A stretch of 64,000 bases of DNA from a virus (taxonomy: Duplodnaviria; Caudoviricetes), in the IMG/VR virus record IMGVR_UViG_3300028909_000001; one strand, 5' to 3'. Positions 35,968-49,313 of the stretch are shown piece by piece. The position numbers were made by a program, and so were the translations under genes. The notes below the pieces were generated by a model. That model was not told the DNA's origin, ran no database searches, and saw only the letters and a program-made list of their open reading frames with translations. Numbering within the stretch: position 1 is the first letter of the stretch; every line of letters begins with the position of its first letter.

Positions 35968-36981
35968 TTACGAAACATTTTTATGCAAGTGTAATTCAAT
36001 GGTAGAATGAGGCTCCTCCAAAGCTTTAATGGGCGTTCGACTCGCCTCACTTGCTTGTAATTGTTTAATTAATAAATTAGGTTCTTTTACTATTTCCTCC
36101 CAATTACCACCATATTTTTTAGTCTTAATGATAACTAGATTTGGCACTTTAGCTGTTTTCATTTTGTACTCTGCTTCTTTAGTAATATATCCTTTCAATT
36201 CAACGAAAATATTGTTTAAAATAAAGTCAGGATAGTAATTGCGGGATTTACCGTCTAACGTAGTATAAGGAAATCCTTTTAAGTTTCTAGAATAAGATAG
36301 ATTTAATTGTTCGGCTATTTTGCAAAAATTATATTCCATAGTTGACTGACAGTGTATTATTGTACCATCTTTTTTGGTATAGTCTGAGTGTTTACCCCAA
36401 CCTCCACCTTTACGAGGGCCTCCGGTTTTACCTTTCAATACTTTTGATTGCAGTAACTTATAACAAGCTGAAGAACATGTTGACTTTCTGCAGTGTGTTT
36501 TAAATGGGTTAAGACATATTATACATATTTTATTCACTATTTTAACGACTTGTCCATTTTTATATCTAAAACGAGGAATACCGTCGTTTTCGTAACGATT
36601 TTTTAATGCTAAACTTATGTTCATATTTTTAGTTTTAATTTGTTTTGTTGTTAGATGACTATTCCTATATTTAGCGCTGCAAGACTTATTGCAAAAATTT
36701 AGTTTTGTTCGTTTGATTTCCTTCTGTAATTTATATCTTGTTTTTCCACACTGAGCACAAGTTACAAGTTTTGCAGCATTAGGTTTGCATTGTTTTGAAC
36801 AATAATCGGACACACGACAACTAAGTTTATTTGCAATCTGACGTTGCACTTCATTTTTATTTTTGTAGTATGTTTTATGACAATTACAACATTCTAAAGG
36901 TATAAGATCTCTAGAACCACAAGTGTCAAATATAGCTTGTAACATCAATATCTTCATATGAGTTATATTACCACTATCCAC
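35968..36981 (-). mobile_element. Free-standing zinc-finger PD-(D/E)xK homing-endonuclease-like gene
   Basis: Repeated CxxC...CSxxC fingers and C-terminal YYPDF...FVELKG; only minus-strand gene; sits between tRNAs. Confidence 0.75.
35985..36055 (+). tRNA. tRNA-Gly(TCC), no encoded CCA, antisense to endonuclease 3' end
   Basis: GCAAGTG/CACTTGC acceptor, U73, AGGCT-CCTCCAA-AGCTT, TTCGACT. Confidence 0.75.
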
Positions 36982-37090: not shown

Positions 37091-37615
37091 ATGACAATAA
37101 CTAAAAGAGACGATAGATGGTATGATGAACGAGGTAATAGTTGGAGAACAGAAGAATCAGCTACTACATACTCACTTACCCTAATTAATTGTAGAGATTG
37201 TAGTAATTGTAATAATTGTATAGGTTGTAGTAGTTGTAGTAGTTGTAGTGGTTGTAATAGTTGTAGTGGTTGTAGTACTTGTTATAATTGTAGTGGTTGT
37301 AGTGCTTGTAATATTTTTAATTATTGTCATGATTGCAGTAGTTGTTTTAATTGTTATAGTTGTACTGATTGTAGTAATTGTAGTGATTGTAATTATTGTA
37401 GTCGTTGTAGTGATTGTAGTAGTTGCAGTAATTGTATTGATTGTAATATTTGTAGTGATTGTAGTTATTGTAGTAGTTGTAGTAGTTGTACTAACTGTAA
37501 TCATTGTGAATTGTGTGGAAAATTAGTTGATCAAAAGTTTCAAGAAAAGATTAAAGACCCATTAATTAGGACAGAGTTTAATGTAGAAAACAGGTTACTA
37601 GAACCAGACTTATAA
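37091..37615 (+). CDS. Cys-repeat family protein, copy 4 (RLLEPDL)
   Basis: Family architecture. Confidence 0.85.
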   Translation: MTITKRDDRWYDERGNSWRTEESATTYSLTLINCRDCSNCNNCIGCSSCSSCSGCNSCSGCSTCYNCSGCSACNIFNYCHDCSSCFNCYSCTDCSNCSDCNYCSRCSDCSSCSNCIDCNICSDCSYCSSCSSCTNCNHCELCGKLVDQKFQEKIKDPLIRTEFNVENRLLEPDL

Positions 37616-38679: not shown

Positions 38680-38755
38680 GGCTGTATAGTGAAAGTGGAT
38701 ATCATACAATTCTTCTAAATTTGAGTTCCTGGTTCGATCCCAGGTACAGCCACCA
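38680..38755 (+). tRNA. tRNA-Arg(TCT)
   Basis: GGCTGTA/TACAGCC, CTTCTAA loop, TTCGATC, CCA. Confidence 0.88.
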
Positions 38756-38819: not shown

Positions 38820-39362
38820 ATGAATAAAGTACCTATTACTAAAACCGCCCTACAAGCACTTTCAACTCCTACTAAAGATGTGATTGACAAGGCTTCACCA
38901 CTAATTAAACGCTTTGCTGAAATTATCATGGGTTATTATAGCCCTGAAGAACCAGCTGTTTTTGAGTCTGAAGGAGATAAGACAGTCCAAGCTTTGTTTG
39001 ATAAATGGCCTAAAGATGATACTACTTTGCGGCTAGCTGAATTGACTGAGGCTATTTACGGATATAAGCCTGTTGTTAAAGATAATAAGACGATTAAATT
39101 TGGAGAATTGATTAAGTACAATAGTGACGTCTATGTAACTGTGCATAGTGATAGTAATAGTTTTTATGTTGCTTCAGTGAATGGAGCAAATTGTCTACGT
39201 CTATATCCAAATAATGCTATTAATAAAGTTACGGCTGCTGAAGCTGGTATTTTTGTTAAAGAATTCTTGAAAGTTAAACCTAGTATATTACTTACTACGC
39301 TAGGTAAGGTAGCTATCAGTATTGTTTTAGAGTTTTTGGAACAGGTTGGAGATAATATTTAA
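38820..39362 (+). CDS. Hypothetical protein
   Basis: 180-aa ORF after a G-poor leader. Confidence 0.65.
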   Translation: MNKVPITKTALQALSTPTKDVIDKASPLIKRFAEIIMGYYSPEEPAVFESEGDKTVQALFDKWPKDDTTLRLAELTEAIYGYKPVVKDNKTIKFGELIKYNSDVYVTVHSDSNSFYVASVNGANCLRLYPNNAINKVTAAEAGIFVKEFLKVKPSILLTTLGKVAISIVLEFLEQVGDNI

Positions 39363-39368
39363 TCTAGT

Positions 39369-39444
39369 TGGTGTGTAGCTCAATTGGTAGAGCAATCGAT
39401 TGTTACTCGATAGGTTCTTGGTCCGACTCCAAGCACACCAGCCA
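39369..39444 (+). tRNA. tRNA-Asn(GTT)
   Basis: TGGTGTG/CACACCA, ATCGA-TTGTTAC-TCGAT, CCA. Confidence 0.9.
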
Positions 39445-39449
39445 ACATT

Positions 39450-39593
39450 TGCTAGGTAGTTTAATATTATGTGTTATAATGATGACTTCAATAGACTATC
39501 TGCTAGCGTAGTTGCGACCCATTATTAAACGCACTTGTAAAACCACAGCTTTCTAAGCTGTTGATGTCGTGTCAAGAACGACCCTGGCTGTCA
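39450..39593 (+). ncRNA. tRNA-Arg(TCT)-like RNA with a 71-nt insertion in the D-loop
   Basis: GCTAGG/CCTGGC acceptor, GTTT/AAAC D-stem split by 39466-39536, ACAGC-TTTCTAA-GCTGT, GTCGT/ACGAC T-stem, TCA end. Confidence 0.55.
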
Positions 39594-39597
39594 ATTT

Positions 39598-39780
39598 ATG
39601 AATGAACAACAACGTAAGAAAAAACTAGTAGATGTAATAAATCTGGTTGATGATGAACTTAGACTAGTTATCAAAGCAACTTATGCTAAAGAGCGTACAA
39701 CTGAGGAAAGACTAGCAATTGCAGATATAATAGAGGCTCAAGGCCGACTATTAGATGCACAGTCACGTCTCGAAAAATAA
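39598..39780 (+). CDS. Small helical hypothetical protein
   Basis: 60-aa ORF. Confidence 0.55.
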   Translation: MNEQQRKKKLVDVINLVDDELRLVIKATYAKERTTEERLAIADIIEAQGRLLDAQSRLEK

Positions 39781-39786
39781 ACTTTT

Positions 39787-39861
39787 GCGGGAGGGTAGGT
39801 TAGATCTACAGAAGTCTCATAAGCTTCTTTAAACTAGGTGCAATTCCTAGTCTCCGCACCC
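39787..39861 (+). tRNA. tRNA-Met/Ile2(CAT)
   Basis: GCGGGAG/TCTCCGC, CTCATAA loop, T-loop TGCAATT, CCA. Confidence 0.8.
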
Positions 39862-39869
39862 ATTTAAAT

Positions 39870-40295
39870 ATGAACCATAACCTTTGTCCTAACTGTAATA
39901 ATACTGGAAAATATCTTGAATACTTTGATTCTTTCTATTGTCCTGACTGTGATAACTGGCTTGAACCAATTTGTGAGGATAAAGAATGTAGATATTGTAG
40001 TGATAGGCCGGAAAAGCCTAGTTTACAATTTTTACCTAATAAAAAGACTTATTCTGACTTAATAGGTGATTTAATGGAATATAATCATTTCGTAGCTCTA
40101 ACCGTATCTGGTTCTATAATAACTGAAGATGGTTATGTCGAATCTGTATTTATTGATGGTATTCATAGACCGGAGATATATATTGAGGGTGGCTGGACAT
40201 TGGAACCGGATAGTAAATTTTATAAACACTACGAATTATTAGAGTTGGGTAAAGCATTTCCTGATAAGGTAATTCAATTAGAATGGTGTACCTAG
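39870..40295 (+). CDS. Hypothetical protein with N-terminal zinc-finger-like Cys cluster
   Basis: CPNC...CPDC...C...CRYC. Confidence 0.6.
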   Translation: MNHNLCPNCNNTGKYLEYFDSFYCPDCDNWLEPICEDKECRYCSDRPEKPSLQFLPNKKTYSDLIGDLMEYNHFVALTVSGSIITEDGYVESVFIDGIHRPEIYIEGGWTLEPDSKFYKHYELLELGKAFPDKVIQLEWCT

Positions 40296-40296
40296 T

Positions 40297-40704
40297 ATGA
40301 CAATAACTAAAAGAGACGATAGATGGTATGATGAACGAGGTAATAGCTGGGATACTGAAGAAGCAGCTACTTTATACTCACCTACCCTAACCGATTGTAC
40401 TAATTGTTATAATTGTTATAGTTGTACTAATTGTAGTCATTGTAGTAGTAGTTGTATTAATTGTAAAGATTGTAGTAGTTGTAGAGATTGTTATAATTGT
40501 AGTAATTGTAGTAGTTGTAGAGATTGTTATTATTGTAGTAATTGTATTAATTGTAATAGTTGTAGAAGATGTAGTCGTTGTGATAGCTGTAGTGATTGTA
40601 GTGAGTGTATTGGTTGTAATGACTGGACTAATAATAAGAAATATGAACCAGTAATTAGACCATTTATAGATTGTAGAGATAGACTATTAGACCCTTATTT
40701 ATGA
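40297..40704 (+). CDS. Cys-repeat family protein, copy 5 (RLLDPYL)
   Basis: Family architecture. Confidence 0.85.
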   Translation: MTITKRDDRWYDERGNSWDTEEAATLYSPTLTDCTNCYNCYSCTNCSHCSSSCINCKDCSSCRDCYNCSNCSSCRDCYYCSNCINCNSCRRCSRCDSCSDCSECIGCNDWTNNKKYEPVIRPFIDCRDRLLDPYL

Positions 40705-41078
40705 ATTCCAAATTTGAACAATTATTACGAACTAAAGGCTGGGTAGTTGAAAATAACAATATTTATGTCAAGGATTACCATTTTATATTGAATAATATGG
40801 ATAAGTTAGTATCCATCAATGTATACTTTTCAGGCTATACCAATGATGGATTTCCCAAGTTTGCTAGATATTCAGCTTTAAATAAATCAAGTATCTATTT
40901 ATCCAAAGCTAATGCATATACTATAATTAAGAGTAAAGATAGAATTATATTAATGTTGGATCTAGCTGGGCAAGAATGTGCTATTAAATTTTTAATGTAT
41001 AGTGAAGCAGTCCATACACTTATGCATCAAGCTAAACTAATATTGGACCAAGCTAATCAAACTTATGCAAGTATCTAG
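40701..41078 (+). CDS. Hypothetical protein
   Basis: 125-aa ORF. Confidence 0.55.
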   Translation: MNSKFEQLLRTKGWVVENNNIYVKDYHFILNNMDKLVSINVYFSGYTNDGFPKFARYSALNKSSIYLSKANAYTIIKSKDRIILMLDLAGQECAIKFLMYSEAVHTLMHQAKLILDQANQTYASI

Positions 41079-49107: not shown

Positions 49108-49313
49108 CTATAGATCAAAGAATAACTAGATTGGAGAAGAAGGCTGGAAGGCCAGATTTACCAGGAACTACAATTAGTAGAATACTTTATAAGAAGAAAG
49201 GGTTTGGCTGGACTGTAGGAGTTGGAGCAATGCATTTATCTAGAATATGGTTTCATGCTAAAACTATAGAATCAGCACTATCCAAAGCTGAAAAACACTT
49301 TAAAATAAAATGA
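49104..49313 (+). CDS. Small hypothetical protein
   Basis: 69-aa ORF. Confidence 0.55.
   Translation: MTIDQRITRLEKKAGRPDLPGTTISRILYKKKGFGWTVGVGAMHLSRIWFHAKTIESALSKAEKHFKIK

What the first reader, a model, noticed from the sequence alone, without database searches (positions are those of the whole stretch)
39450..39593. tRNA-Arg(UCU)-like RNA with a structured 71-nt insertion in the D-loop
Removing 39466-39536 leaves a near-normal tRNA: TA-GTTT-AAT|GTA-AAAC, perfect 5-bp anticodon stem with TCT, T-stem, 6-bp acceptor, and TCA in place of CCA. The insert folds back on itself (GTGTTATAATG with CATTATTAAACGC; GACTA/TAGTT) and also contains a partial antisense to the tRNA 5' end. A normal tRNA-Arg(TCT) exists at 38680, so this copy is free to take on another role: intron-containing tRNA, tRNA mimic or decoy for anticodon nucleases, or a switch.
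Basis: partly seen in the sequence, partly recalled or inferred. Interest (0 to 1): 0.6.

Follow-up and report, generated by a model that had tools for sequence, protein, structure and literature searches.

The report
Orphan tRNA-shaped phage RNA, giant D-loop
A large uncultured phage carries, inside its tRNA gene cluster, a 144-base RNA with the exact outline of a tRNA but a long hairpin in one loop; it is most likely a non-decoding tRNA look-alike like the unexplained 'species 1' RNA of phage T4, but no relatives or transcripts could be found to test this.

Summary
Window 39450-39593 (+) folds by minimum free energy into a full cloverleaf with exact tRNA spacings, plus a 77-nt D-loop that forms a long hairpin. 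A strict descriptor of this shape hits only this site in the window and in 516 kb of other natural DNA. It gave no hits in 60 shuffles.

'Near-normal tRNA' is overstated. With the insert deleted, ARAGORN calls no tRNA-Arg even at 60% thresholds, and Rfam's tRNA model gives no hit at E<=10. The T arm has U53-A61 and G54, G18 is missing, 1-72 is U.U, and the end is UCA where 17 of 18 neighbouring tRNAs encode CCA.

An intron reading has no support: no BHB motif, no splicing endonuclease in the held 39% of the genome, and no ribozyme match.

No homologue exists apart from one identical contig. The element plus an orphan 60-aa gene is an indel relative to the nearest phage.

T4 rnaC has the closest architecture, a tRNA frame with a long hairpin in the D-arm position. 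A model built from rnaC does not match the element.

Best reading (0.5): a processed, non-decoding tRNA-like RNA. Main rival (0.3): a decaying tRNA gene. This scan held no look-alike on other DNA.

The parts
39369..39444 (+). tRNA-Asn(GUU) with encoded CCA, directly upstream. It is separated from the element by a 5-nt spacer, 39445-39449.
   Evidence: ARAGORN; Rfam RF00005 66.8 bits.
39450..39458 (+). U1 (unpaired against U72), acceptor 5' strand 39451-56, then U8 A9.
   Evidence: MFE fold; acceptor pair probabilities 0.99-1.0.
39459..39462 (+). D-stem 5' strand GUUU. It pairs with 39540-39543 (AAAC).
   Evidence: pair probabilities 0.71-0.82.
39463..39539 (+). Expanded 77-nt 'D-loop'. It starts with A14 and A15 and ends with G-U-A21. 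It holds the long irregular hairpin 39470-39533, with an 8-nt apical loop CUGCUAGC (39500-39507) that contains the palindrome GCUAGC.
   Evidence: hairpin pair probabilities 0.83-0.99; hairpin alone z = -1.84.
39501..39513 (+). Internal near-copy (UGCUAGCGUAGUU) of the element's first 12 nt (39450-39461). It suggests that part of the insert arose by partial duplication.
   Evidence: Local alignment 12/12 with one 1-nt gap; 11 of 2000 shuffles score as high.
39545..39561 (+). Canonical anticodon arm: 5-bp stem and 7-nt loop UUUCUAA with U33, anticodon UCU (39552-39554) and A37.
   Evidence: weak blastn matches to phage tRNA-Arg anticodon arms.
39566..39582 (+). T arm: 5-bp stem closed by U53-A61 instead of G53-C61. 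The loop is GUCAAGA (G54 instead of U54; U55, C56 and A58 are kept).
   Evidence: the deviation explains the failure of ARAGORN and RF00005.
39583..39593 (+). Acceptor 3' strand (39583-88), U72, discriminator G73, and UCA in place of CCA. The same A/U-rich trailer (AUUUA) that follows the phage's real tRNAs comes next.
   Evidence: 17 of 18 tRNAs in the window end in CCA, mostly followed by AUUUAA-like trailers.
39598..39780 (+). Orphan 60-aa ORF that starts 4 nt after the element. Element and ORF together are absent at this position from the closest relative.
   Evidence: ORF list; only itself among 5.8 billion protein clusters; no Pfam or PHROG match; synteny with G001.

Best explanation
The element is a tRNA-derived, non-decoding, tRNA-shaped RNA.

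Proposed mechanism, with each step marked:
- It is transcribed as part of the long + strand tRNA/small-ORF operon (inferred; no promoter or terminator of its own).
- Its 12-bp acceptor/T-arm stack, U8-A14, A15-U48, G10-C25, U55, C56 and A58 give it the shape that RNase P recognises, so RNase P would cut at 39449/39450 (inferred from the geometry).
- Its 3' end would be made at G73-UCA by the same trailer-directed processing as the neighbouring tRNAs. That cut also frees the 60-aa ORF's mRNA with a leader of about 4 nt (inferred).
- The product, about 140 nt, shows an intact tRNA-Arg(UCU) anticodon arm (shown in the sequence).
- It should be neither charged nor used by the ribosome (inferred from established identity and structure rules). 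The D-loop, site of the main bacterial ArgRS determinant A20 and of G18, is replaced by a hairpin of about 25 bp; G53-C61 and U54 are lost; 1-72 is U.U; and CCA is UCA.

Its role is probably that of the old phage 'tRNA-like stable RNAs': binding or diverting a tRNA-recognising factor. A host anticodon-loop nuclease or a modification enzyme are candidates. This last step is speculation.
For: - The ab initio MFE fold gives the whole cloverleaf with exact tRNA spacings and high pair probabilities.
- The descriptor hit is unique in the window. It has 0 hits in 60 shuffles and 0 other hits in 516 kb of natural DNA.
- The model built from the element matches genuine tRNAs of a related phage end to end (tRNA-Gln E=1.7e-4, tRNA-Lys E=0.004), so the frame is truly tRNA-like.
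- It lies in a tRNA cluster, 5 nt after tRNA-Asn, in a 153-nt gap with no credible ORF.
- G-UCA-AUUUA copies the N73-CCA-AUUUAA context of the phage's tRNAs.
- All four core stems are intact, with only one G.U, while conserved loop and tertiary positions have changed. U53-A61 keeps the pair through a change on both sides relative to the universal G53-C61.
- T4 rnaC, a proven stable RNA of unknown role (PMC3014915, PMC9697503, PMC12685909), has the same plan: a tRNA acceptor and T arm with a long hairpin of about 64 nt in the D-arm position.
- T5 carries several annotated 'tRNA-like stable RNAs' in its tRNA region.
Against: - There is no diverged homologue, so no covariation or conservation test was possible. 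The only other copy is 100% identical. At about 1 SNP per 400-500 nt between the two contigs, that identity says nothing about 144 nt.
- The covariance model found nothing in 32 related phage records, five of them at least 93% complete. Loop-pattern scans of viral, metagenome and genome collections found only chance hits.
- No expression data could be obtained.
- The folding z-scores are modest (-1.97 for the whole, -1.84 for the insert).
- The losses (G53-C61, U54, G18, A72, C74) are also what a dying tRNA gene would show.
Confidence: 0.5

Rival explanations
1. It is a decaying tRNA gene, a pseudogene. A former tRNA, possibly a second tRNA-Arg(UCU), was hit by a partial duplication or insertion in its D-loop. 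It is now drifting, made redundant by the intact tRNA-Arg(UCU) at 38680.
For: - Several of the most conserved tRNA positions are lost together: U53-A61, G54, no G18, U1.U72, UCA for CCA.
- The tRNA detectors reject it.
- The insert holds a 12-nt copy of the gene's own 5' end, the kind of scar a duplication leaves.
- The element is confined to one phage strain and is absent from the closest relative and 31 others.
- A functional isoacceptor lies 700 nt upstream.
Against: - All 20 core stem pairs are intact, apart from 1-72, which a decoding tRNA would also need. The losses sit at loop and tertiary positions, whereas random decay should break stems at least as often.
- The 53-61 pair changed on both sides and remained a pair.
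- The 71-nt insert extends the D stem as a hairpin of about 25 bp instead of being unstructured.
- The phage packs its genes tightly around the element, with 4-6 nt gaps, so 144 nt of junk would be unusual.
Confidence: 0.3
2. It is a working tRNA-Arg(UCU) with an expanded D-loop. Host enzymes would trim UCA and add CCA, as they do for the CCA-less tRNAs of T4. The RNA would then be charged and would read AGA.
For: - The anticodon arm is perfect, with U33, UCU and A37. C35, U36 and G73 are bacterial Arg identity elements (PMC9976931).
- The L-shape contacts U8-A14, A15-U48, G10-C25, U55, C56 and A58 are present.
- Repair of missing CCA in phage tRNAs is established biology (own knowledge, T4 and RNase BN).
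Against: - A20, the main determinant for bacterial ArgRS, lies in the loop that has been replaced (PMC9976931).
- G53-C61 and U54, nearly universal in elongator tRNAs, are lost, and the 1-72 pair is a mismatch.
- ARAGORN and RF00005 reject the insert-free sequence.
- A canonical tRNA-Arg(UCU) already exists.
Confidence: 0.07
3. It is an intron-containing tRNA. The insert of about 71 nt would be removed from the D-loop, either by an archaeal-type endonuclease plus ligase or by self-splicing, to give a mature tRNA.
For: - The insert sits inside one loop and folds on itself.
- D-loop introns exist in archaea and in a red alga (own knowledge).
Against: - No bulge-helix-bulge sits at boundaries that would restore a normal D-loop. 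Only six weak A/U-rich candidates turned up elsewhere.
- PF01974 is not found in the held 85 kb. That is only 39% of the genome.
- The ligase-like gene at 49310 is an ATP-dependent DNA ligase.
- 71 nt is far below group I or II size, and no intron or ribozyme family matches at E<=10.
- The 'spliced' product is still not an acceptable tRNA.
Confidence: 0.03

Closest known systems
Phage T4 species 1 RNA (rnaC), 139 nt, AF158101.6 70908-71046
   Same: - It lies in the phage tRNA gene cluster, packed within a few nt of the neighbouring RNA genes (rnaD and tRNA-Arg(UCU) just upstream).
- It is about 140 nt long.
- It has a tRNA-like acceptor stem and T arm, with a long hairpin (about 64 nt) in the D-arm position.
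- It has no encoded CCA.
- Rfam's tRNA model does not recognise it.
- Its function is still unknown (PMC3014915, PMC9697503, PMC12685909).
   Different: - There is no sequence or model similarity. Model R2, built from four Tevenvirinae genera, gives no hit on the element at E<=10 with filters off.
- rnaC has a canonical T loop, tandem U.U mismatches in the acceptor stem, and a 10-bp 'anticodon' stem with an invariant 6-nt loop CGUCAA.
- The element keeps a canonical 5-bp/7-nt anticodon arm and a 4-bp D stem, but its T arm is non-canonical.
Phage T5 RNA1 (144 nt) and RNA2 (125 nt), annotated 'tRNA-like stable RNA with unknown functions' (AY543070.1)
   Same: They are stable RNAs with a tRNA frame, set among phage tRNA genes and small ORFs. 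They are similar in size and of unknown role.
   Different: In T5 the D arm is normal and the expansion sits in the anticodon arm. Here the reverse is true. No sequence similarity was seen.
Canonical bacterial or phage tRNA-Arg(UCU), Rfam RF00005
   Same: Cloverleaf geometry and an anticodon arm with U33-UCU-A37. Also U8, A14, A15-U48, G10-C25, A21, U55, C56, A58 and G73.
   Different: A 77-nt D-loop without G18 or an assignable A20; U53-A61; G54; U1.U72; UCA instead of CCA. No RF00005 or ARAGORN hit, with or without the insert. At most about 70% identical to any tRNA of this or related phages, and 46 of 73 to the resident tRNA-Arg(UCU).
Archaeal or algal tRNAs with non-canonical (D-loop) introns
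   Same: Extra sequence lies inside the D-loop of a tRNA frame.
   Different: No BHB motif, no splicing endonuclease found, bacterial-style tRNA genes with encoded CCA around it, and a product that would not be a normal tRNA.

Membership tests
tRNA (Rfam RF00005; elongator tRNA-Arg) | Recognised by tRNA covariance or heuristic models | tested here: not met
   - No RF00005 hit at E<=1 in 34 kb.
- No RF00005 hit at E<=10 in 155 nt.
- ARAGORN makes no call on the native sequence.
- ARAGORN makes no tRNA-Arg call on 255 deletion variants, down to 60% thresholds.
tRNA (Rfam RF00005; elongator tRNA-Arg) | Cloverleaf with 7/4/5/5-bp stems, 2/1/0-nt spacers and 7-nt anticodon and T loops | tested here: met
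   MFE fold, (acceptor 6 bp plus U.U). The descriptor hit is unique, with 0 hits in 60 shuffles.
tRNA (Rfam RF00005; elongator tRNA-Arg) | Conserved elbow and T-arm positions G18 G19, G53-C61 and U54, and a D-loop of normal size (established tRNA knowledge) | tested here: not met
   Read from the sequence: U53-A61, G54, at most one G before A21, and a 77-nt D-loop.
tRNA (Rfam RF00005; elongator tRNA-Arg) | Bacterial Arg identity set: A20, C35, U/G36, A/G73 (PMC9976931) | tested here: inconclusive
   C35, U36 and G73 are present. A20 cannot be assigned, because the loop is replaced and the residues before the D-stem 3' strand read U-G-U-A.
tRNA (Rfam RF00005; elongator tRNA-Arg) | 3' CCA encoded, as in this phage's other tRNAs | tested here: not met
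   The element has UCA at 39591-93. 17 of 18 tRNAs in the window encode CCA.
T4 species 1 RNA (rnaC) family | Sequence and structure homology to rnaC | tested here: not met
   Model R2, built from T4, IME523, KM16 and KaAlpha, gives no match on 39450-39593 at E<=10 with filters off. blastn shows no similarity.
T4 species 1 RNA (rnaC) family | About 140-nt RNA gene in a phage tRNA cluster, with a tRNA-like acceptor and T arm and a long hairpin in the D-arm position | tested here: met
   In the element the D stem itself is kept and the hairpin extends from it.
T4 species 1 RNA (rnaC) family | Conserved motifs: tandem U.U in the acceptor stem, 10-bp stem with loop CGUCAA, canonical UUCGAAU T loop | tested here: not met
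   The alignment shows these motifs. The element has none of them.
T4 species 1 RNA (rnaC) family | Accumulates as a discrete stable RNA during infection | not testable with these tools
Intron-containing tRNA (BHB/EndA type or self-splicing) | Bulge-helix-bulge at the exon-intron junctions | tested here: not met
   A permissive scan gave six weak A/U-G.U candidates. None has boundaries that restore a D-loop of normal size. The MFE shows a 1x1 and a 3x2 internal loop instead.
Intron-containing tRNA (BHB/EndA type or self-splicing) | Splicing endonuclease present, or an intron ribozyme fold | tested here: not met
   PF01974 is absent from the 85.7-kb record, though that is only 39% of the genome. 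No group I or II intron or small ribozyme family matches at E<=10. The insert is only 71 nt.
T5 RNA1/RNA2 tRNA-like stable RNAs | tRNA frame with a normal D arm and an elongated anticodon arm | tested here: not met
   The folds show the T5 expansion in the anticodon arm. The element has a canonical anticodon arm and an expanded D-loop.

The most novel reading that the evidence does not exclude
The RNA is a purpose-built tRNA-Arg(UCU) decoy. It keeps an exact anticodon arm and the RNase P-competent frame. The D-loop (ArgRS determinant A20 and the elbow) is replaced by a hairpin, and the T arm and CCA end are altered, so synthetase, EF-Tu and ribosome would ignore it. It would soak up a host anticodon-loop nuclease or a tRNA-modifying defence factor aimed at tRNA-Arg(UCU). 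The adjacent orphan basic 60-aa protein might be its partner. If so, this would give the first assigned function to the class of phage 'tRNA-like stable RNAs' that includes T4 species 1.
Probability: 0.12. Interest if true: 0.75.

Novelty: new variant of a known kind. Interest (0 to 1): 0.4.

Why it matters
Phage tRNA clusters have long been known to hold tRNA-shaped RNAs that are not tRNAs, such as T4 species 1 and 2 and T5 RNA1 and RNA2. None has an assigned function after some fifty years.

This element is an independent, non-homologous case of the T4 species 1 plan: a tRNA frame with a long hairpin at the D arm. Unlike T4's, it still shows a readable anticodon arm (UCU). That hints at which tRNA it imitates, so binding or cleavage by tRNA-Arg-specific factors can be tested directly.

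It also shows that standard tRNA finders and Rfam miss this class. However, it is an orphan with no comparative or expression support, and the possibility that it is a dying gene remains substantial.

Tried and rejected
Homologue searches that found nothing useful:
- blastn against 50,697 phage records gave only short tRNA anticodon-arm matches.
- Neighbour-protein searches found one contig, identical in the element.
- Covariance model R1 found nothing in 32 related phage records chosen through the UDG-PolA polymerase, and no paralogue in the element's own record.
- Loop-anchored patterns in viral contigs found only the same contig.
- An exact 21-mer in metagenomes gave 0 hits.
- A loop pattern gave 20 metagenome and 16 genome hits; model R1 matched none of them.
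- Of two insert words scanned in viral contigs, one gave a 19-mer match that lies in an unrelated small ORF and is chance.

Other leads:
The 44 contigs said to encode the orphan 60-aa protein could therefore not be fetched, and no transcript evidence was obtained.
- Weak C/D-box snoRNA matches (E 0.85-5.7) come from an AUGAUGA word that is Watson-Crick paired in the hairpin. There is no box D or k-turn. Rejected.
- tmRNA idea: a 19-codon ORF (39469-39528) lies in the insert, but it has no SD sequence, ARAGORN calls no tmRNA, and the anticodon arm is retained. Judged chance.
- tRNA-repair context: the ligase at 49310 is a DNA ligase and the phosphoesterase at 41065 is NinI-like. No support.
- Recent duplicate of the resident tRNA-Arg(UCU): rejected, 46 of 73 identical.
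- Strain comparison for selection: uninformative. No SNP falls in 39051-40197, at a background of about 1 per 400-500 nt.

Full report
**What is there**

The window is part of an 85.7-kb IMG/VR virus record, estimated 39% complete. It belongs to a lineage of uncultured phages of roughly 190-235 kb that share a UDG-PolA fusion polymerase.

Positions 32.8-61.5 kb form a + strand region in which at least 17 tRNA genes alternate with small ORFs. The finding lies in a 153-nt gap with no credible ORF. The gap runs from 5 nt after the CCA of tRNA-Asn (39369-39444) to 4 nt before the ATG of a 60-aa ORF (39598-39780).

**Check of the observation**

- acceptor of 6 bp, plus a U1.U72 mismatch
- U8 A9
- D stem of 4 bp
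- a 77-nt D-loop forming an irregular hairpin of about 25 bp
- one nucleotide
- anticodon stem of 5 bp with loop UUUCUAA (U33, UCU, A37)
- a 4-nt variable region
- T stem of 5 bp with a 7-nt loop, directly abutting the acceptor 3' strand

Every helix has a pair probability of 0.7-1.0. The energy z-scores are modest: -1.97 for the whole and -1.84 for the insert. I therefore tested the geometry itself.

A strict descriptor of a cloverleaf with a 13-110-nt D-loop finds only this site in the window. It finds none in 60 dinucleotide shuffles of the window, both strands.

Six G.U pairs make the fold specific to the + strand, and the reverse complement folds 7.5 kcal/mol worse. The model built from the element matches genuine tRNA-Gln and tRNA-Lys genes of a related phage end to end, skipping the hairpin (E 1.7e-4 and 0.004).

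After deletion of the insert the sequence is not a near-normal tRNA. I made 255 deletion variants around the proposed boundaries. ARAGORN calls no tRNA-Arg in any of them, even at 60% of its thresholds, although at 70% it mostly spurious tRNAs in the window. Rfam's tRNA model gives no hit on the 155-nt stretch even at E<=10.

The sequence shows why:
- The T stem closes with U53-A61 instead of the near-universal G53-C61.
- The T loop is GUCAAGA, with G54 instead of U54.
- There is no G18.
- Position 1-72 is U.U.
- The 3' end is G-UCA.

By contrast, 17 of 18 tRNAs in the window encode CCA, usually followed by an AUUUAA-like trailer. The element has UCA followed by AUUUA. It therefore sits in a tRNA-gene context, with C74 changed.

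Many canonical tertiary positions remain: U8, A14, A15-U48, G10-C25, A21, U33, A37, U55, C56 and A58.

**Origin**

The tRNA-like core has no close parent. It is at most about 70% identical to any tRNA of this phage, its relatives, T4 or T5, and 46 of 73 to the resident tRNA-Arg(UCU).

The insert contains a 12-nt copy of the element's own 5' end; 11 of 2000 shuffles score as high. It also holds an 8-nt stretch complementary to the D-stem 5' strand. The alternative fold using that pairing lies 4 kcal/mol above the MFE.

In the closest relative available, G001 (polymerase 74% identical), gene order is conserved: tRNA-Arg(UCU), a homologue of the 180-aa ORF, tRNA-Asn, then a CAU tRNA-like gene, and further on Ser-Pro-Ile. 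After tRNA-Asn, however, G001 carries a tRNA-Met and an unrelated 164-nt structured RNA where the window has the element plus the 60-aa ORF.

The 60-aa protein is an orphan among 5.8 billion protein clusters.

**Search for relatives**

Every route failed except one contig that is 100% identical over the region. The routes were:
- blastn against cultured phages
- model R1 over 32 related phage records, including five that are at least 93% complete, and over the element's own record
- loop-anchored patterns that leave all stems free, run against viral, metagenome and genome collections
- insert words

The two identical contigs differ by about one SNP per 400-500 nt outside the hypervariable Cys-repeat genes. 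Identity over 144 nt is therefore uninformative.

No covariation test was possible.

**Interpretation**

*Intron.* The intron reading fails on all accessible tests. No bulge-helix-bulge sits at useful boundaries. No PF01974 endonuclease is present in the held part of the genome. No intron or ribozyme family matches. The insert is too small for group I or II introns. The spliced product would still be defective.

*Decoding tRNA-Arg.* This is unlikely. The main bacterial ArgRS determinant, A20, lies in the replaced D-loop (PMC9976931), the T arm and the 1-72 pair are aberrant, and a normal isoacceptor lies 700 nt upstream.

*Functional tRNA-like RNA or dying tRNA gene.* These two readings remain.

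I favour the functional reading at about 0.5. The losses are concentrated at loop and tertiary positions, while all four core stems are intact. The 53-61 pair changed on both sides and stayed a pair. The insert continues the D stem as a long helix rather than being disordered. The surrounding genome is tightly packed.

The pseudogene reading, at about 0.3, is kept alive by four facts: the duplication scar, the strain-restricted distribution, the redundancy with the intact isoacceptor, and the lack of any conservation evidence.

**Comparison with known RNAs**

T4's tRNA cluster ends with tRNA-Arg(UCU), rnaD and rnaC. rnaC, the species 1 RNA of 139 nt, folds as an acceptor stem plus a canonical T arm, with a hairpin of about 64 nt in the D-arm position and a 10-bp anticodon-like stem.

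Homologues from four Tevenvirinae genera keep tandem U.U mismatches in the acceptor stem and an invariant CGUCAA loop. The sequence of the D hairpin varies freely.

Rfam covers neither rnaC nor the T5 RNAs. The function of rnaC is still described as unknown (PMC3014915, PMC9697503, PMC12685909).

The element shares the plan of rnaC but none of its motifs, and a model built from rnaC does not match it. It therefore works like rnaC, as far as architecture goes, but is not a member of that family.

T5 RNA1 and RNA2 are annotated as tRNA-like stable RNAs. They expand the anticodon arm instead.

Earlier notes of this scan report other tRNA look-alikes in the same genome, which fits a phage that carries several such RNAs. 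Those notes are unchecked leads. A look-up by sequence found no look-alike of this element elsewhere in the scan.

**Verdict**

This is a real, statistically robust tRNA-shaped RNA gene with an expanded, hairpin-forming D-loop. It is neither a normal nor an intron-bearing tRNA. It is an orphan, independent variant of the phage 'tRNA-like stable RNA' kind.

Function and even expression are untested. Interest is moderate (0.4).

Noticed in passing
window 39786-39862 (+); relative L038:16598-16675 (-): A second unusual tRNA-like gene with anticodon CAU, a 6-bp D stem with a 3-nt loop, T loop GUGCAAU and encoded CCA. ARAGORN at default settings and Rfam at E<=1 both miss it. It is conserved in the relative G001, with compensatory changes in the D and anticodon stems.
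   Followed up: partly
L038:16672-16835 (-) (relative G001): An unassigned 164-nt, strongly folding RNA (z = -3.9) lies between tRNA-Met and the CAU tRNA-like gene. It occupies the position that the element plus ORF60 hold in the window.
   Followed up: no
window, 3' flanks of the tRNAs, e.g. 35585, 42084, 42535, 59051: Most of the phage's tRNAs encode CCA, followed by a recurring A/U-rich trailer (AUUUAA-like). This may be a shared 3' processing signal. tRNA-Gly(UCC) at 35985-36055 lacks CCA.
   Followed up: no
window 39469-39528 (+): A 19-codon ORF (ATG to TAA) fits almost exactly inside the D-loop insert. It has no Shine-Dalgarno sequence and is probably chance in A/T-rich sequence.
   Followed up: partly
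L001:909-1047 (-), L079, L080, L081: T4 rnaC homologues from four Tevenvirinae genera keep tandem U.U mismatches in the acceptor stem, with a compensatory A-U to G-C change next to them, and an invariant CGUCAA loop. The sequence of the long D hairpin is free to vary. No Rfam family covers rnaC, rnaD or the T5 stable RNAs.
   Followed up: partly
window 37091-37615 and 40297-40704 (+): The Cys-x-x repeat genes are the hypervariable spots between the two near-identical contigs. Dozens of differences fall within a few hundred nt, against about 1 SNP per 400-500 nt elsewhere.
   Followed up: no
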